From: Octopus vulgaris
Taxonomy: Eukaryota
Reading direction: 5' to 3'
DNA length: 64,000 nt
Assembly (NCBI GenBank): GCA_951406725.2
Contig: OX597820.1
Location: 63,550,001 to 63,614,000, forward strand
The notes beneath the pieces were generated by a model, which was not told the origin of the DNA, made no database searches, and was given only the letters and a program-made list of their open reading frames with translations. Of the stretch, positions 8,610 to 40,338 are shown in pieces. The position numbers and the translations under genes were made by a program. How positions within the stretch are numbered: position 1 is the stretch's first letter; every line of letters begins with the position of its first letter.

Positions 8610-11600
8610 GTTATAGATTTTCATTTGCTCTCATCTTCACAGTCACAATGGACTAAGAAACAAGCAGATCTGCATAGAAACCTAGAAAAACGTGGTTTCC
8701 CACAAAAGAACAGATCGACCTGATCCGCAGACAGGGAAAGTGCCTAAAATGTTTTGGGGATTCTCCATTTGATGTTCTCGGTCAAGAATTTGGATAAAAC
8801 AGTTGCTTCATATTTATACTTATACCAAGCAGAAAGGAGCACTTGAAACAATTGACTGAAAACGTAAGCGAATCCATAAATAAAATGAGATGGAAGCTAT
8901 ACAATATAGACTAGATATGCACGTGTGTATATAATAGTCAAAAAATTATACACACTTGAGTTCCGTTATGATAATGAATGCCATTTTGTCCATACGCTCA
9001 GACATACAAACAACACGCACTCATTATGCATACATGAAACAATTCAATTAACCACAAGCCCCTAGAGATAACTTGTCTTGACATTTTGCTAGTGAGTAGC
9101 TGGAATTCTCCAAGAGGAAATGTTTCAAAATAAATCTCAAGGATAGATTCCTACATGCATAGATTCCTACATGCCTACACACACAACCATATTTTTACTG
9201 TTATGTTTCTATGGGTGTGTGTGTGTTTGTATTTTTTGTTCGTGTAACATTTAACTCATGTTATATTCGTGCGCACCGGTGACGTGAACAGGAATCTGAA
9301 ACAAGCGTTGTTTGCTTAGGTCATAAATGTTTAGTCCAATCCATTGGTGCAAAAGCCAGTGTTCTGCTATGACGCAACACAGCAAATGACTCGATCGGGT
9401 CATCACATTTAACCAGACCACTTCTGCTCATGCACCGTTAGCTAATTGGCCTGTGCCACCAGTTTTCTAAGGAATCAGTGATTTAGGTCGATGCTATGTT
9501 ATCGAATGTCTCTGCTAAAATGCCGTGTCGTGGAGTATTTAAAACTGGAATTTTCGGTCGAGCAAAGTCAACCAATACATACATCTCAGCAGCTTCCCTC
9601 CTACCACTAATAGTTGCTGCTGAAAAATACACCATTTTCTCTTTTCCCTCTGTTTTCTCGTTTTTGTTTTTTTGTTTCTTTTCTTTTCTTTGTCATTAAC
9701 TGTCTATTGTCCCTGCTCTAATTTACCACAACAGCAGGAGTGGCTGTGTGTCAAGTAGCTTGCTTAGCAACCACATGTTTCCGGGTTCAGTCCCACTGCG
9801 TGGCACCCTAGGCAAGTGTATTCTGCTATAGCCTCGGGCCGACCAAAGCCTTGTGAGTATATTTGGTAGAGGGAAACTGAAAGAAGCCCATCGTGTATAT
9901 ATATATATATGTATGTATGTGTGTCTGTGTTTGTGTGTGTGTGTTTATGTATATATTTCTGTGTCTGTGTTTGTCTCCCTAACATCGCTTGACAACCGAT
10001 GCTGGTGTTTTTACGTTCCCGTCACTTAGCGGTTCAGCATGAGAGTCCGATAGAATAAGTACTAGGCTTACAAAGAATAAGTCCTGGGGTCGATTTGCTC
10101 GACTAAACACGGTGCTCCAGCATGGCCGCTGTCAAATGACTCAAACAAATAAAAGAATATAAGAATAAAAGAATAACTCTATATATTTTGAACAACGGAA
10201 CGCGTATAGTGCAATCAGTATCAAGTTGGATGATCGTGAACGTGACATTCGAAAGCTAAATGTGAAATTCCAACTGCAATAACTTTGAATATCTCTTGCC
10301 TCTTAATATTGAGTATTCTGAACTCGCTTTACATATGACATTATACACGCGTGCACTCACGCACACATATAAATTAATGTTCAGCTGTTCCTGTGTACCC
10401 AAGTGAAAAACGATATATTCGTTTATTCCCACATCAGTCCTTATCTAGTCAATTTTCTTCAGTCAAGCTGATTGAAAGTTAAAATAAATGGTTAAGCTCA
10501 CTGACCGCACATTTGTGGACTAGAAACGCCATAAGTTCGCATTATTTATAACATTACGAAAATATACTCAATGTTAACTTTGTAAAAAAAATATGCATCT
10601 CAGAATTTGGTTACAAATTACATTATTCTCAAGAATTGAATAGAGGATTACTAACAGATTCAGAAAGGAAACTATGTTTTAAAATTCACCCCCGCTGCTT
10701 TGGTGTCATTGCATCTTATTTAATTTCTTTAAAAGTGTTTTAGAATACCTTCAAGTGTCGCCTATGGAAAGATAGATAAATTTCCTTCACCTGTTCCAAA
10801 ATGCCGGTTGAAACCAGGCATGACTGTGGATTTAAGATTTTCGTTTCAAAGCTTTGTGATTGCTTGTTCGATCTAAGTGCGCAGCAGTTAGATCGAATTA
10901 GTATCTCACATCATAGCCCCGTATCCGCTAATCACTTCTATCAAGTATCTTCCACTATAGCGTCGTATCCCCTACAGTTCTGCGAATAGAATTTGGTAGA
11001 CATAAGGAAATTGTACAAATACCTCGAGATTTGGGGAATATTCTTGCTTTGCAGTCCTAAACTTCTGTCTGGTTTACACATCTACTTTGACCACTCTATA
11101 TCTTTATCTAACTTCACATTTTTGCAAATACTCAAAACATGAGTCAAGTCTGAAAATTGATCTTCCTTTTCTGCTCAATCCACTAAACGAAGCCATACTT
11201 TTCACTCAATCTCTTGCCTTTTGCTTTCCTTCAGTTTGACAATATCATCATGTTGCATATGAACAACACTGTTATCTGCATTTATTTTCCCTGATTAATT
11301 TCATTGACGGTTTTATATGAAAATCTCGCAGTATATTAACCATGCTTAGTCTAACTGACAGCTACTGGCTGGTGGCAATATGATCCTTCATGTATTTTGA
11401 ATTCAAATTTCTTACTTTCCTCCGATTTTAATCTCCTGTCTCTTGTATATTATTTCTACACTATTTGTGTGCCCTTTAGGGAGATTCACACTCAGCATGA
11501 TTAATAGTTTTGCGATATATTTCCATACATCTAACACTTATTATCCTGCCTGGTTTCTGTCAATTTTTGTTTTAACAAATCGCTTTTCCTTCTGAAGCTA

Positions 11601-15195: not shown

Positions 15196-15637
15196 ACTCT
15201 TTACTCTCTTTTACTCTTCTACTTGTTTCAGTCATTTGACTGCAGCTATGCTGGAGCAACGTCTTCAGTCGAGCAAATCGACCCTAGGACTTATTCTTTG
15301 TAAGCCTAGTACTTATTCTATCGGTTTCTTTTGCCGAACCGCTAGGTTACGGGGACGTAAACACACCAGCATCGGTTGCCAGGCGATGTGGGGGAGGGCC
15401 ACAAACACAGACACACAAACATATACACACACATACATACATACATACATAATATATATATATATATATATACATATATACGACGGGCTTCTTTCAGTTT
15501 CCGTCTACCAAATCCACTCACAAGGCTTTGGTCGGCCCGAGGCTATATTAGAAGACACTTGCTCAAGGTGCCACGCAGTGGGACTGAACTCGGAACCATG
15601 TGGTTTGTAAGCAAGTTACCGCACAACTACTCCTTCT

Positions 15638-17533: not shown

Positions 17534-18999
17534 TGATTGATTGATTCTAGTTTCAGCTCATGAGCTGTGGCCATGCTGGGGCACCGCCATTTGGTGTTGC
17601 TACATGGTTTTACTTCACGAATGCCTTTTAGCAACTGCCATTTGGTGCATGAAAGAGTTCGATGCAGCTGCCCTCATCTGCGCCTCCTGCCGTGAAGTTG
17701 GTTCATCTGGGATACCTGACAAGAAGAGATCCAGTTTCATTTTAAAGACATCTGCATCCACCCCATGCAGGTCTCTTAGGTTCTTCGGGAGGATATTGAA
17801 GAGATGTGGGCCTCGGAAGCCCAGGCTATCACAGTACCTTGTCCTACATCTTGATGGCAAATTTGGAGTCCTAGGCACCACGCAGTGGCGCCCAGTTCTG
17901 GCATTTGTGTAACTCTCGATGCCAAAGTTTGGGACAAGTCCCTCCAGGATCTTCCAGATGTATATTATGGCATATCTTTCTCGCCTACGCTCCAAGGAAT
18001 AGAGTTTTAATCTCTTGAGTCTTTCCCAGTTGCTTATATTCTGCATAGAGGCTATCTACTTCGTGTAGCTACGTTGGATCGCCTCAAGTTCTGTGATCAA
18101 CTTGACACTGGATGGTGACCATAGCTGAGAGCAATAGTCAATGTGGCTTAGGACAAGTGTCCTCCAGAGGACCATCATGGTTTCTTGTTCTCTTGTTCTA
18201 AAGGTTCTGAGAATCCATCCGGCCAGTCGTCTACATTTCATTGCCAATTTAGCAATATGTACACGAAAGGTTGCGTCATAACTCATGTAAATACCCAGGT
18301 CACGCACTGATTGTGCCTCTGGGATTGCAATTCCTCCGGGTCCAGTGTATTCATTGGGTATTGCATTTAGTTTTGCATGCTGATAGTATAAAGCTTGAAA
18401 CTTTTCAGCATTGAACTGCATGCTATTCTTTTCAGCCCACTTGTATATTTTGTCCAGCTCACATTGCAGGCGTTTAGTGTCCTCAGGGTTCTGTATTGCC
18501 TGTGAAACTTTTGTATCATCTGCATAACTTGTGATCGTGGCTCTCTGCGTGGCTGAGTGCATGTCTGAGAGGGCCATTATGAACAGTAGTGGTCCCAAAA
18601 CAGTGCCCTGCGGAACACCGTTCACTATTTGCGTGTTAATGGAAGTGGCCCCATTGGCTACCACCACCTGACTTCTATCTTTCAGAAAGTCATGAAGCCA
18701 TTCTCCCAGTTTTCCAACTATGCTAAGATCACGCAGTTTCTGACATATCATTCCATGATCGACTTTATCAAAGGCCTTTGCAAAGTCGAGATATATCACT
18801 TCCACATTTGAGTGGTTGAGCAGTCGTTTCAGCACCCAGTCATAGTGTTGTAGGAGCTGAGTTAAGCAGCTTCTTCCTGGTCGGAAACCATGTTGGGTGT
18901 CAGGCAGCAAGTCATTTTCTTCAAGGAAGGTGATCAGTTTCCTTCTGACTATTCGTTCCATGACCTTGCTGACGCGTGAGGTCAGAGAGATAGGTCTAT
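17531..18999 (-). mobile_element. 5'-truncated CR1-group non-LTR retrotransposon (RT domain, 3' UTR and (AATC)n tail) inserted in a (TA)n tract
   Basis: RT motifs YRPISLTS, QHGFRPGRSC, YLDFAKAFDKVDH, GVPQGTVLGPLLF and YADDTK. ORFs 18056..19165 and 17615..18046 are in the same frame, separated by a single TAG. The tail reads gaatcaatcaatcaatc. The N-terminal part of ORF 18056..19165 is microsatellite. Confidence 0.95.
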
Positions 19000-19018
19000 A
19001 TGTATATATGTGTATATA

Positions 19019-19125
<107 letters not shown>

Positions 19126-19646
19126 TTGTTAAGGAGGATAACAAGCGCTTAGACAAACATCTCAAGTCACATATACCTTATTATCAATAAAATATTTTAA
19201 GTCTTATAGCTGTATGTGACTTTAGATGAATGTCTTGCCTTCGAATTTGTTGTCCTGTTTAACAAAGATATATCCGTTATATCGGAAATATACAATGGTT
19301 CTGTAAGTCCCGTCTCGGCTCTAAGCTTGCAGCCCTGGTAATTCGTTACACCACTTACACACCGTATCTATCCTTTTAGATCACTTGTGAACTAAACCCC
19401 CATATTTTGTATTTGTCTGCACCAGCATGGCCGCAGTCAATTGCCTACAACAAGTAAAAGAACATATATATATATTTAGTCTGGGGAGAGTGGTTTAGTT
19501 TTAATGCCTTATCATTTAACACAGGCGTCAGTTCACCTTCCACTCATTAATTTTCTTTCCTAAAACTTTCGTTGCTTCTTGCAACCTTATCAATAGTTAA
19601 TTAATCTCTAAGAATCCATCTATCTATCTATTGTTCTACCTACCTG

Positions 19647-31319: not shown

Positions 31320-31740
31320 CTCTTTTACTCTTTTACGCTTTTACGTGTTTCAGTTATTTGACAGTGGCCATGCTGGAGCACCATCTTTAGTCGCGCAAAT
31401 CGACCCCAGGACTTATTCTTTGTAATTCTAATACTTATTCTATCGGTCTCTTTTGCCGAACCGCTAAGTTACGGGACGTAAACACACCAGCATCGGCTGT
31501 CAAGCGATGCTGGGGGTACAAACACAGACACACAAACATATACACACACACGCGCATATATATATATATATATATATACGACGGGCTTCTTTCAGTTTCC
31601 GTCTACCAAATCCACTCACAAGACTTTGGTCAACCCGAGGCTATAGTAGAAGACACTTGCCCAAGGTGCCACGCAGTGAGACTGAACCCGGAACCATGTG
31701 GTTGGTAAGCAAGCTACTTACTACACAGCCACTCCTACTA
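31320..31740 (-). mobile_element. Full-length SINE family A
   Basis: Reverse complement of family A from tail to head (cacagccactcct). Confidence 0.9.
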
Positions 31741-34636: not shown

Positions 34637-34880
34637 TATTTAAAACACTACTTAGTCTCAGTTAAGTTAGAAGTGAAAATTGATTTGTAGCGGACCTATC
34701 GAACACATATCTATCTCTGTATTCTCTCACTACATATGCTTCTTGCCCTAAGCAAGTCTAGTGGTGTGTACCAATACCATTTTAATTTGACCATTTCCTC
34801 TTTGTATATGCATACGACTGTAGCAAAAGCCTGTTCATAATGTGCATCTTTGCTGCAAGTGGTCACACATCAATCTAGCC

Positions 34881-34963
34881 CAGTGCCCCCCTAACCTGGG
34901 TCCCGCGAACCACTGGAGGTTCGCAAAGGTAGTACTAAGGTTCCGTGAACTAAATACAAAATT

Positions 34964-35018
<55 letters not shown>

Positions 35019-35880
35019 TTGAGTTGTGGGGTATCGCACGAGTGGGATTATATAAGAAAAAAGGTTTGAAAATGCAATTTAAACGATGTTTATTTACTTA
35101 ACCGGTTTCACTCTTTGGTAAAAGATTGTCAAAAGTTACATTTAAGGAAACATTGAATAATATGGGTTCAAAAAAAGTTTTTTACATAATTGTCACATTG
35201 GATATTATGAATTCAAAAATGTTTTTTTATACATAATTGTCACATTACATGTATAAATATAGTGTTGGGTAACAGAGAAGTTCAATAGTGTGATGAGAAT
35301 ATTTGGGAAAATTTGGCAGAAAAGGATAAAACAAATATATTATTGGGAATTGGTTGCGTTAATTATTGGTTGTCGCAAATTGTCACATTACATGTATATA
35401 TATACAATCTTTGGTATATATATACAGCGTTTTGACAGCAAAAATTAAAATGGATTTTTTGTACATCTCAGAATATTTTAAGTATGTTTTTACTGACCTG
35501 TCAGTATTAGCAGGAAGGCTGAACTGAGAGAACAGAAGAAGTAGCCAATGTGGTGTATACTTCCCCTTTATGCATGAATGATTTTGGGGTTATCAGGAGG
35601 TTAGTATGCGGGTGTGAATAGATGTGTCCGTGCCTGCTGGTCAGATAGCGTCTGTTTGTCACACACATATATATACACACAAACATACACACACACAACA
35701 ACACACACACACACACACACATAGTATACAAACACACACCACATACAAACAACACACACACACACAGAACACACACACCCACACACAACGCACCCACATA
35801 TATCACATATACACACAGCACACAAATATAACATGTATCTATATATAACATACACAGATATATAACACACATACACACAC

Positions 35881-35917
<37 letters not shown>

Positions 35918-36727
35918 CACACGCACACATACATACATAATATAAATATCACACAAATACACCTAGCATATATATACACACATACAATACACACATACAG
36001 CATGTAAGTAATATACATACACAATATATGCATGCAATATACATACGCAATACATACATATAATATATATATATATAGACAATGCATATACATATATAGA
36101 CATATACATATAAATAGTGTTTACATACACATACATAGATGTACCACATATACACACAACACACATACATACAATGCATACACATACACGTACGCATACA
36201 TATAATATATATCTACACACACACACACACATAACATACATACACACACAATGCATACATATATATACACGCAATGCATATACATGTATTCATGCATATA
36301 TAGCACACCTACAATATACATATATACAGTGCACACATACACACAAATATATACACTTAATTGTACACGTACATATACAATACACATACATACAATATAC
36401 ATATACACAATGCGCATGCAAATAATGTACATCTTTATACACACATAAACATGCAAATAAATATACACACACACACATACACACACACACATATATATAC
36501 ACATATATATATATATATATATACACACATACATACATACATACATGCACATACATATATTTTTTCACACACATACACACACATATATATATATAAAAAA
36601 TTCACCACCCCCCACACACACAAATTACAAACCTATAGCGTACACACTCAAATATATCTCTACATGCCGCACACACACACAAACAAAGTACTAACATATA
36701 CACACATACCATGCATATACACACACA

Positions 36728-36771
<44 letters not shown>

Positions 36772-37073
36772 GATACATATGTAAATACATACACACGTAC
36801 ACAATGCTCACACACACACACACACATACACACACCCACACACACAATGCACACACACACACACATATATACACACGTGCACACACACACACACACACAC
36901 AACGCGCGCACACACACATATACACACACACGCACACAGTGCACACACACACACACACACACACACACAACACTCACACACATACATCACCTACATATAT
37001 ATAATGCATGCGTGTGCATTGACCGCACACACGCATGCATTATATATATGTAGGTGATGTATGTGTGTGAGTG

Positions 37074-37105
<32 letters not shown>

Positions 37106-37203
37106 ACTGTGTGCGTGTGTGTGTATATGTGTGTGTGCGCGTGTGTGTGTGTGTGTGTGTGTGCACGTGTGTATATATGTGTGTGTGTGTGTGCACTGTG
37201 TGC

Positions 37204-37253
<50 letters not shown>

Positions 37254-37274
37254 ATTTACATATGTATCTGTTTT

Positions 37275-37309
<35 letters not shown>

Positions 37310-37503
37310 TGTGTGTGTGTATATGCATGGTATGTGTGTATATGTTAGTACTTTGTTTGTGTGTGTGTGTGCATGTAGAGATATATTTGAGTGTGTACGC
37401 TATAGGTTTGTAATTTGTGTGTGTGGGGGGGTGAATTTTTTATATATATATATGTGTGTGTATGTGTGTGAAAAAATATATGTATGTGCATGTATGTATG
37501 TAT

Positions 37504-37535
<32 letters not shown>

Positions 37536-38105
37536 GTGTATATATATGTGTGTGTGTGTATGTGTGTGTGTGTATATTTATTTGCATGTTTATGTGTGTA
37601 TAAAGATGTACATTATTTGCATGCGCATTGTGTATATGTATATTGTATGTATGTGTATTGTATATGTACGTGTACAATTAAGTGTATATATTTGTGTGTA
37701 TGTGTGCACTGTATATATGTATATTGTAGGTGTGTTATATATGCATGAATACATGTATATGCATTGCGTGTATATATATGTATGCATTGTGTGTGTATGT
37801 ATGTTATGTGTGTGTGTGTGTAGATATATATTATATGTATGCGTACGTGTATGTGTATGCATTGTATGTATGTGTGTTGTGTGTATATGTGGTACATCTA
37901 TGTATGTGTATGTAAACACTATTTATATGTATATGTTTATATATGTATATGCATTGTCTATATATATATATATTATATGTATGTATTGCGTATGTATATT
38001 GCATGCATATATTGTGTATGTATATTACTTACATGTGTATGTGTGTATTGTATGTGTGTATATATATGCTAGGTGTATTTGTGTGATATTTATATTATGT
38101 ATGTA

Positions 38106-38163
<58 letters not shown>

Positions 38164-39053
38164 TTATATATCTGTGTATGTTATATATAGATACATGTTA
38201 TATTTGCGTGCTGTGTGTATATGTGATATATGTGGGTGCGTTGTGTGTGGGTGTGTGTGTTCTGTGTGTGTGTGTGTTGTTTGTATGTGGTGTGTGTTTG
38301 TATACTACGTGTGTGTGTGTGTGTTGTTGTGTGTGTGTATGTTTGTGTGTATATATATGTGTGTGACAAACAGACGCTATCTGACCAGCAGGCACGGACA
38401 CCTCTATTCACACCCGCATACTAACCTCCTGATAACCCCAAAATCATTCATGCATAAAGGGGAAGTATACACCACATTGGCTACTTCTTCTGTTCTCTCA
38501 GTTCAGCCTTCCTGCTAATACTGACAGGTCAGTAAAAACATACTTAAAATATTCTGAGATGTACAAAAAATCCATTTTAATTTTTGCTGTCAAAACGCTG
38601 TATATATATACCAAAGATTGTATATATATACATGTAATGTGACAATTTGCGACAACCAATAATTAACGCAACCAATTCCCAATAATATATTTGTTTTATC
38701 CTTTTCTGCCAAATTTTCCCAAATATTCTCATCACACTATTGAACTTCTCTGTTACCCAACACTATATTTATACATGTAATGTGACAATTATGTATAAAA
38801 AAACATTTTTGAATTCATAATATCCAATGTGACAATTATGTAAAAAACTTTTTTGAACCCATATTATTCAATGTTTCCTTAAATGTAACTTTTGACAATC
38901 TTTTACCAAAGAGTGAAACCGGTTAAGTAAATAAACATCGTTTAAATTGCATTTTCAGAAACCTTTTTTCTTATATATATATATATATATATACTTACAT
39001 ACATATGCATATTTAAAGTGTTTCGTGAGAAAAAAAAAAGTTCGGAACCACTG
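34881..39053. mobile_element. hAT (Charlie-like) MITE split by a large palindromic insertion
   Basis: Termini cagtgcccccctaacc and gttcggaaccactg resemble CAGTGGTTCCCAACC TIRs. Flanking 8-mers atctagcc and atctaggc (7/8 identical) fit the NTCTAGAN-like Charlie target. Confidence 0.7.
35049..38976. repeat. ~3.9 kb near-perfect palindrome (two ~1.96 kb arms, 7-11 nt loop at ~37021)
   Basis: Centre catcacctacatatatataatgcatgcgtgtg-cattgaccgca-cacacgcatgcattatatatatgtaggtgatg. The unique outer parts (35049-35660 and 38363-38976) are reverse complements with only a few differences. Confidence 0.97.
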
Positions 39054-40338
39054 ATCTAGGCTTTCTGACTCTCATCCCATCACGTGACAGACCAGCCGAG
39101 CTGCGGGAATTTATATCACCTATATAAGGAACTCTTTCCCGCTATATGTTCTGTGAGGTGGGTTTGCACGATCGAGTTCGTATCTTCAGCAGAGAGTAAG
39201 TTTATATCGCAGGTAGCCTCATTTATTCTTTGACGCATACCTTTGTTCCTCTCCTCTAGCAGAGGTTATGTTACGTATTTGCTTTCCTATTCTACATCGC
39301 ATACGTCATTATCAAGTTCCAACTCCATATGCAACTATTGTGTATATATACTAACCGTTCCTTCAAGATATATCTCAACAACTTTGCTGTGTTAATGCTC
39401 TTTATCGTGTTGAATAAATCATCGCATTTAATCCTGGTTTCTTCGTTCGTCCTTTATCTATGCACGCAACCTTATTCAAACCAGATTTATCCATCAAATC
39501 AACAACCACCGTTAATGGAGTATGTTAACCAATGTGTCCATGCTTTTATAAGAGCATGGTACGCTTTTTCTGTTACTAACAAAACATACGAAAATACTAA
39601 CACATTAGTTTTTTTCTCGTCAAATACTGCTTATATTAGAACTAAAAATATTTAAATTGATGCTAATGAAGTTTGTTTGCATTTGATTGTAGATTATAAT
39701 CGGTGAAACAACCAACAAGACACGAATGAAAACGCAATTTATCTGGCAGTACAAGGATGAAAGCAAATCTATTTACGGCTGAATTTGAACGTAGAAAGCA
39801 AAAATCTGTAACAGAATACCAAAATATATTTCACCAGTTGATCTGAGGATCCGCTGAATCCTGAGCCTTTACGATGGAATACATTTAAAACATAAAATAT
39901 ACAGAGGCGTAAATAAGGTTTATATATAAAATCATAAGACAGAAAAATAATCACAGTCAGTTCGACGACAGGACACTCACTGTTTCATAGTACCAGTATA
40001 AGATATAATCGATTAGACAATAACAGTAAGAGATGGTGGGGGTGATAGGCTTATAGACAGGGTAGGGAAGAGCTTTTTCATTTTGCTTGGTGAAAGGAGA
40101 TTTTCTATTAAATAAACATATGTTTGATTATATACACAGACAATTATATATTCATACACCAATTCAAGCATACATACAGATACACATAATTACAAGACAA
40201 GACAGAAAGAGGAAAAGAGAGAGGAGTGAAAGGGGAAGAGGTTACGAACAAGGAATTTCAAATGAAATGGACAAGTTTTACGCAATGTATGCACGTATTC
40301 GTGTGAATGTGTCTGTGTGTATATATATACACGCATAC

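What the first reader, a model, noticed from the sequence alone, without database searches (positions are those of the whole stretch)
35049..38976. 3.9 kb palindrome with Penelope-type hammerhead ends, inserted inside a hAT MITE
Seen: two ~1.96 kb arms around a 7-11 nt loop, differing only by a few substitutions, a 2 bp indel near the end and repeat-length changes. Each arm ends outward with a degenerate hammerhead (ttgacaa-tcttt..aaaga-gtgaaaccggtt) about 50 bp before a TA tract. The outside flanks are the two halves of one MITE with a matching TSD, which argues against a simple fold-back read artefact. Inference: a PLE-mobilised RNA carrying ~1.5 kb of captured genomic sequence was reverse transcribed, and its cDNA folded back to self-prime the second strand. 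That would be a route to long palindromes and sequence transduction. Such palindromes are normally unstable.
Basis: partly seen in the sequence, partly recalled or inferred. Interest (0 to 1): 0.75.

Follow-up and report, generated by a model that had tools for sequence, protein, structure and literature searches.

The report
Head-to-head Penelope retroelement insertion
This mirror-image stretch is two back-to-back copies of the end of a young, common jumping gene, a layout already known for this class, and dozens of sister insertions suggest that such pairs likely form when both cut ends of the target DNA start copying the same RNA.

Summary
The palindrome and the split hAT-type MITE are real. 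Both arms are the last ~2 kb of a young 5.8-kb Penelope-like retrotransposon (reverse transcriptase, zinc-finger linker, GIY-YIG endonuclease) that inserts into (TA)n; 688 exact end matches lie in this genome. The CA-rich 1.4 kb is the element's own 3' UTR, not DNA captured here, and 35014-35048 is the element's 'tail', not flank. An inverted second copy with a tail at one end is textbook for this class. Sister insertions add numbers: the tail is on exactly one end in 67 of 67 scoreable pairs, both arms share a subfamily (13 discordant comparisons, 553 expected), either arm can be longer, and junctions show ~2-nt microhomology. That favours priming from both target ends on one RNA over cDNA fold-back alone, though near-perfect hairpin centres like this one are over-represented and may close by fold-back. 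The hammerhead fits a known U3-A8 variant; activity untested. Reads could not bridge the locus. This scan noted the same two-ended pattern before on other Penelope and retrozyme families of this genome. New member of a known kind.

The parts
34873..34880 (.). left copy of the MITE's 8-bp target-site duplication
   Evidence: 7 of 8 identical to 39054-39061; sister MITEs have similar TCTAG-centred flanks
34881..34970 (+). left half of an old hAT-type MITE (the host of the insertion)
   Evidence: 78-83% match to 11 of 11 sister loci; hAT assignment rests on the CAGTG ends and 8-bp duplication, recalled family knowledge
34971..35013 (.). (TA)n target tract, left part; native to the MITE family
35014..35048 (-). 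the element's 34-35-nt 3' 'tail', on the left arm only
   Evidence: 298 exact tail-plus-end matches in G000; lies between two TA runs in tandem copies
35049..37019 (-). tail-bearing arm: 5'-truncated copy of the element's 3' end, about 2010 nt of reference copy L046
35086..35141 (-). type I hammerhead-like motif, U3-A8 core, left arm (activity untested)
   Evidence: mirror of 38883-38938
35150..35246 (.). 44-45-nt tandem units; unit number varies between subfamilies and is the same in both arms here
35660..37019 (-). CA/TA-rich part of the element's 3' UTR, left arm
   Evidence: shared by sister arms at 93-98%; 37 of 38 hits of a 42-nt word lie 0.8-2 kb from an element end
37016..37026 (.). 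head-to-head junction: 4-nt microhomology (37016-37019) plus 7 nt that belong to the right arm, which lacks 15 nt found in other copies next to its tip
   Evidence: short form in 1 of 39 panel sequences that span the site, this arm itself
37027..38977 (+). tail-less arm: second 5'-truncated copy, reaching about 20 nt further into the element than the left arm and ending about 115 nt short of the RT-EN stop codon
38883..38938 (+). type I hammerhead-like motif: UUGACAA box 38892-38898, GAAA 38915-38918, palindromic ACCGGU, predicted cut after 38924
   Evidence: no Rfam hammerhead match
38978..38993 (.). (TA)n target tract, right part
38994..39053 (+). right half of the MITE, ending in CACTG
39054..39061 (.). 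right copy of the 8-bp target-site duplication

Best explanation
The stretch is one insertion of two head-to-head, 5'-truncated copies of a young Penelope-like retrotransposon in the (TA)n tract of an older MITE, likely made when both cut ends of the tract primed reverse transcription on one RNA. Shown: identity of the element, (TA)n targeting, tail on exactly one end, one subfamily per pair, a different junction at every locus. Inferred: the endonuclease cuts both strands of the TA tract; one end primes at the TA run just inside the tail (tail-less arm), the other at the TA run 34 nt further out (tail arm), which is still single-stranded if the inner site fired first; each cDNA stops independently and the two 3' ends are joined through 0-4 matching bases or a short insert. 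If only one site fires, a single-arm copy results. Identity about 0.97; mechanism about 0.6.
For: Copy L046 holds a 5829-nt unit with a 776-codon open frame: Pfam RVT_1 E=6e-8 above cut-off, DKG, RT motifs, CX2-5CXXC linker, GIY-YIG with two cysteines between. 132 of 134 outer ends abut (TA)n. Tail on exactly one side in 52 of 52 facing pairs (51 with both outer ends, L077's outer end is missing) and in 16 of 16 scoreable new loci. Single-arm copies: 22 tail-less, 9 tailed, and 2 that proved to be pairs, of 33, so the inner site primes on its own, yet no simple pair has two tail-less ends. Tail-less arm longer by >50 nt in 14 of 52; 4 of these hold a jumped piece of the tail arm, 10 do not; in the new set 6 of 14, plus locus C8 where it exceeds one unit. 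These pairs are not older (0.27% against 0.42% arm divergence, p=0.43). 13 discordant of 2460 comparisons at diagnostic sites, 553 expected. Microhomology median 2 against 1 in the null, p=4e-6, on the 29 of 51 junctions without insert. No two of 52 loci share a junction. In vitro a Poseidon protein cleaves and extends both strands and starts at two sites that bound the tail (PMC11167929).
Against: Near-symmetric pairs are over-represented (6 of 47 within 70 nt, 1.7 expected, p=0.005; 2 of 14 more in the new set), as fold-back predicts; this window is one of them, and its centre can be drawn as a 4-bp fold-back stem. The tail arm is the longer in 34 of 48 unequal pairs of the first set (p=0.006). 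A shared subfamily shows one source locus, not one molecule. The model needs strand displacement over kilobases, which is untested. In PMC11167929 priming is at RNA sites not homologous to the cut DNA, whereas here both sites are TA runs. One complex locus (C3, about 155.25 Mb) has facing tail-less and facing tailed ends, inside a mirror image that includes flank. An apparent excess of deletions in tail arms (9:0) did not replicate (2:5). Public contigs do not bridge this locus.
Confidence: 0.6

Rival explanations
1. Hybrid: the first cDNA (tail-less arm) folds back at its tip and copies itself, while a second priming at the outer site supplies only the tail and a short stretch that anneals to the returning strand.
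For: Excess of near-perfect hairpin centres; in 4 of the 6 tightest (window, L075, L089, L134) the tail-less arm is the slightly longer one; 4-nt stem at this window's centre; arms nearly identical.
Against: Cannot make the 34 of 52 pairs in which the tail arm reaches further, some by more than one unit, so it can hold only for a minority class; 22 of 51 junctions carry inserts and most others only 0-4 matching bases.
Confidence: 0.2
2. Pure fold-back: the tail arm is always the first strand, folds back, and the returning strand is cut or annealed at the inner TA run; pairs with a longer tail-less arm arise by later central deletion.
For: Tail arm longer in 34 of 52; 4 tail arms show internal deletions near the centre; Craig et al. 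ascribe the tail to endonuclease-mediated resolution (PMC8557442).
Against: 10 clean pairs plus 7 new ones with a longer tail-less arm, by up to 3.2 kb, not older than the rest; 22 tail-less single arms; no simple two-tailed pair.
Confidence: 0.12
3. Self-priming on an antisense RNA of the element, as proposed for rotifer Penelope elements.
For: Proposed for head-to-head palindromes in PMC3846280.
Against: Gives no reason for the one-tail rule; the later in vitro work maps the tail ends to start sites on the template RNA (PMC11167929). No RNA data were obtained here.
Confidence: 0.04
4. Assembly or read artefact (fold-back chimera).
For: No public contig bridges the junctions or the centre; palindromes are hard to assemble.
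Against: Ends are asymmetric by the tail, flanks are colinear halves of one MITE with a duplication, the arms differ at 29 places, and 67 other-or-same loci follow one rule.
Confidence: 0.03
5. Foldback DNA transposon with very long terminal inverted repeats and internal deletions.
For: Many inverted pairs share their ends.
Against: The long arm runs into an RT-endonuclease frame and into head-to-tail tandem units; every junction is unique; 31 single-arm copies.
Confidence: 0.01

Closest known systems
Endonuclease-bearing Penelope-like elements of the Neptune/Nematis type (Craig et al. 2021, PMC8557442; seen: passages, sections 3 and 11)
   Same: RT followed by CX2-5CXXC linker and C-terminal GIY-YIG; upstream ORF in another frame; hammerhead near the 3' end; (TA)n targets; partial tandems; an inverted 5'-truncated copy; 30-40-bp tail at one end.
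   Different: The paper says the tail is 'often' at one end; here it is 67 of 67. The 3' UTR is long (about 2.1 kb) and mostly microsatellite. Clade not tested by a tree.
Adineta vaga Penelope families Pen1-Pen3a (PMC3846280; seen: passages and Discussion)
   Same: Inverted pLTRs with palindromic junctions, 31-bp optional tail, 0.9-1.5-kb non-coding spacer before the 3' pLTR in Pen1.
   Different: Pen1 spacers differ between copies and are read as captured host DNA; here one spacer is shared by the family. Few copies there, hundreds here. Their model is antisense self-priming.
Poseidon_Ac of the green anole (PMC11167929; seen: abstract, main text, start of Methods)
   Same: Two start points bounding a tail, AT-rich targets, hammerhead upstream of the start points.
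   Different: There the tail lies inside the ORF and priming is without homology; here it lies just upstream of the first ORF between two TA runs. The parts read do not model inverted pairs.
U3-A8 minimal hammerheads of Schistosoma Cercyon elements (PMC4209133; seen: main text)
   Same: U3-A8 core, short stem I, palindromic helix III.
   Different: No G10.1-C11.1 pair; two extra bases before GAAA.
L1 twin priming (recalled, not read here)
   Same: Second target strand primes on the same RNA; the pieces join by microhomology.
   Different: In L1 the inverted pieces do not overlap; here both start within 34 nt of each other, so the product is a palindrome.

Membership tests
EN+ Penelope-like element | Reverse transcriptase with DKG and core motifs | tested here: met
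   RVT_1 E=6e-8; motifs by recalled patterns, in full-length copy L046; the window's arms themselves are non-coding
EN+ Penelope-like element | C-terminal GIY-YIG endonuclease with two cysteines between the motifs (CCHH) | tested here: met
   Motifs at residues 684-733 of the 776-codon frame; Pfam gave no GIY-YIG hit, so this rests on motifs
EN+ Penelope-like element | Partial tandems, inverted 5'-truncated copy, 30-40-bp tail at one end | tested here: met
EN+ Penelope-like element | Hammerhead motif near the 3' end | tested here: inconclusive
   U3-A8 core, stems I and II and palindromic helix III can be drawn, but it is not the lowest-energy fold, G10.1-C11.1 is absent and Rfam has no match; copies too alike for covariation
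Neptune/Nematis clades | CX2-5CXXC linker between RT and EN; (TA)n targets | tested here: met
   definition from PMC8557442
Neptune/Nematis clades | Placement in an RT phylogeny | not tested
   no named reference proteins were fetched
Hydra clade | DKT, no CCHH, CXCX5C linker, under 3 kb | tested here: not met
   DKG, CCHH-type motif, 5.8 kb
Naiad/Chlamys | Endonuclease N-terminal to RT | tested here: not met
   EN motifs follow the RT
Non-LTR retrozyme | Short non-coding unit in tandem | tested here: not met
   unit is 5.8 kb and coding
Foldback DNA transposon | Moves as a unit, so junctions recur; transposase or none | tested here: not met
   0 shared junctions among 52 loci; RT present
hAT-type MITE (host) | Short terminal inverted repeats, 8-bp duplication, dispersed family | tested here: met
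   the autonomous partner was not sought
3' transduction of host DNA | Passenger sequence private to few copies, with a free-standing donor | tested here: not met
   224 exact hits of a spacer word; 37 of the 38 checked lie beside an element end, the 38th inside an element; ancient capture not excluded

The most novel reading that the evidence does not exclude
Penelope-like elements make kilobase palindromes by twin priming: one RNA is copied from both target ends at the two edges of the tail, so the 'tail' is the footprint of the second priming, and this one family has seeded about 275 palindromes of 0.2-9 kb in the genome (extrapolated from 40 pairs per 100 ends, 688 ends).
Probability: 0.55. 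Interest if true: 0.6.

Novelty: new member of a known kind. Interest (0 to 1): 0.33.

Why it matters
The single locus is ordinary. How Penelope-like elements form their inverted ends and tail is named as open in PMC8557442, and a young family with hundreds of unique pairs gives counts that separate the models and predict what an in vitro assay should show. If twin priming holds, these elements are a steady source of long palindromes, which would form double-stranded RNA when transcribed and are candidates for local rearrangement (inference). Six searches of the held library listed no paper whose seen parts propose this model or count the one-tail rule; older subscription papers are not in that library and no supplements were read.

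Tried and rejected
Rfam: no hammerhead family among 105 matches at E up to 10; the miRNA hits are below cut-off and reflect the hairpin and microsatellites. Public runs: no RNA holder listed; contigs of 4 runs break at the TA tracts, so neither artefact nor empty allele could be tested. Tail-arm deletion bias: 9:0 in the first set, 2:5 in the second, pooled p=0.21; dropped. Age difference between arm-length classes: none. Hammerhead covariation: 88 ends identical over 88 nt, the rest nearly so; no test possible. PDB sequence search: nothing significant. Protein atlas: no answer. Donor locus for the spacer: none among 38 hits on C1 and the first 118 Mb of C2; 186 of 224 hits were not checked. 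Rows left out: L032, L041, L110 as overlaps; L071 from junction and variant counts (second arm not mapped); C26 (assembly gap), the C3 complex locus and L077's outer end from the tail count; L095 and L097 inner ends not mapped. The MITE as a cause: rejected, it only supplied a TA tract.

Full report
Observation. The palindrome is there. The arms 35049-37019 and 37027-38977 align as reverse complements with 14 substitutions and 15 indels of 1-5 nt, almost all in microsatellites. The flanks are the halves of one dispersed ~200-nt MITE family with a native central TA tract; the 8-bp duplication matches at 7 of 8. One thing was missed: 35014-35048 is not flank. It occurs joined to the element end 298 times in the genome.

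What the arms are. The outer 612 nt gave 49 matches among the 40 best of 1097 candidates, many as facing pairs. A 38-nt end motif has 688 exact matches and none for the reversed control. Sister arms follow the window arm over its whole length at 93-98% and run on. The longest reach a 5.8-kb unit that repeats head to tail (L031, L041, L046, L050). In L046 the unit holds a 776-codon frame with an RT (Pfam RVT_1, E=6e-8), a CX2-5CXXC linker and GIY-YIG motifs, behind an upstream ORF in another frame; the overlap has a T run whose length varies, with a -1 relation in 4 of 7 copies. This is the layout given for Neptune/Nematis-type Penelope-like elements in PMC8557442 (passages and sections 3 and 11 read). 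I built no tree. Both window arms stop about 115-140 nt short of the stop codon, so the palindrome is all 3' UTR. The CA-rich segment is the family's: 37 of 38 checked hits of a spacer word lie beside an element end and the last lies inside an element. No capture at this event is indicated; an ancient one is not excluded.

How common. Of the 64 loci behind the first 100 listed end matches, 40 are inverted pairs and 24 single arms (pairs have two chances to be listed, so this leans high). Pairs span 227-9134 nt and no two of 52 share a junction. 132 of 134 outer ends abut (TA)n. An inverted 5'-truncated copy with a tail at one end is described as typical in PMC8557442 and PMC3846280 (passages and Discussion). 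The architecture is known.

Mechanism tests. Tail: exactly one side in 52 of 52 facing pairs, 51 with both outer ends, and in 16 of 16 scoreable new loci (two were picked through a tail hit). Left out: C26, cut by an assembly gap, and a locus on C3 where a mirror image includes flank and gives facing tail-less and facing tailed ends. Single arms: 22 tail-less and 9 tailed of 33 examined, 2 proving to be pairs. Length: tail arm longer in 34, tail-less longer in 14, within 50 nt in 4 of 52; 4 of the 14 hold a jumped piece of the tail arm. In a second set chosen for long arms the split was 6, 6 and 2 of 14, plus C8, whose tail-less arm exceeds one unit. Source: 13 discordant of 2460 comparisons against 553 expected; within-pair distance 0.39% against 3.3% between pairs; 13 private variants shared by both arms, 53 in one arm only. 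Junctions: 29 of 51 are blunt or overlap, median 2 nt against 1 in the null (p=4e-6); 22 carry inserts, several templated from the element.

Reading. A fold-back copy cannot hold what its template lacks. If the tail-less strand came first it could not gain a tail; if the tailed strand came first it could not be the shorter. Both cases are common, and tail-less single arms show that the inner site primes alone, yet no simple pair has two tail-less ends. Two primings coupled on one RNA, at the two TA runs that bound the tail, explain all classes (inference). PMC11167929 (abstract, main text, start of Methods) shows in vitro cleavage and extension of both strands and two start sites at the tail edges, and predicts a dimer. 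Against: tight hairpin centres are over-represented (6 of 47 within 70 nt, 1.7 expected), and this window is one, with a 4-nt match and a private 15-nt loss at the tip of the slightly longer, tail-less arm. Fold-back at the centre plus a second priming, or two cDNAs running off one RNA end, both fit. A deletion bias between arms seen at first did not replicate and was dropped.

Hammerhead. The motif has the U3-A8 core described for Schistosoma elements in PMC4209133 (main text), a 4+4-bp stem I, a 5-bp stem II and a palindromic helix III, but lacks G10.1-C11.1, is not the lowest-energy fold and has no Rfam match. The copies include sequence beyond the predicted cut, so the template was not cut there. 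Activity is untested. The retrozyme preprint 10.64898/2026.07.22.740005 (passages) did not bear on inversions.

Artefact. Contigs of four public runs do not bridge the locus, so the direct test is open. The asymmetric ends, colinear MITE halves and family-wide rule make an artefact unlikely.

Earlier notes. After I had reached this reading, the scan's index showed the same two-ended pattern on other families of this genome. These are unchecked AI notes, not support. One reports halves from different parents in another family; this family shows the opposite.

Verdict. No supplements were read; those of PMC11167929 and PMC8557442 may bear on the tail counts.

Noticed in passing
G000:C3:155246500-155262999 (L132, L133): Complex locus: element copies sit in a mirror image that includes about 1 kb of flank, giving facing tail-less and facing tailed ends; secondary rearrangement or assembly error.
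   Followed up: partly
L102 (G000:C1:195704300-195714299): A 544-nt tailed arm is followed by an inverted, non-overlapping piece of the element (reference 1922-1624), like a classic L1 5' inversion.
   Followed up: no
L034, L054, L060, L087 junctions: Junction inserts of 24-103 nt match parts of the element 0.6-1.9 kb beyond the tail arm's end: template jumps or deletions.
   Followed up: partly
L046 5651-5711 and six other copies: The two ORFs overlap at a T run resembling a -1 frameshift site; run length varies among copies.
   Followed up: partly
L144-L145 (G000:C8:20091000-20103600): An 11-kb pair in which the tail-less arm runs through more than one unit.
   Followed up: partly
L091 (G000:C1:22501100-22511099): The last ~24 nt of a single arm are repeated after a TA run at its truncated end.
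   Followed up: no
L045 475-1278: Another self-complementary stretch of about 800 nt (94%), outside this family's arm.
   Followed up: no
L044 4436-6477: Several ~480-nt repeats in inverted and tandem arrangement beside the element.
   Followed up: no
window 18056-19177 (-): Open frame with a LINE-type reverse transcriptase fragment, unrelated to the finding.
   Followed up: no
window 9733-10164, 15207-15449, 31517-31739: Dispersed repeats in opposite orientation at 82-86%.
   Followed up: no
window 35100: Many public contigs read another base at the last position of the predicted hammerhead cleavage triplet, still an allowed one.
   Followed up: no
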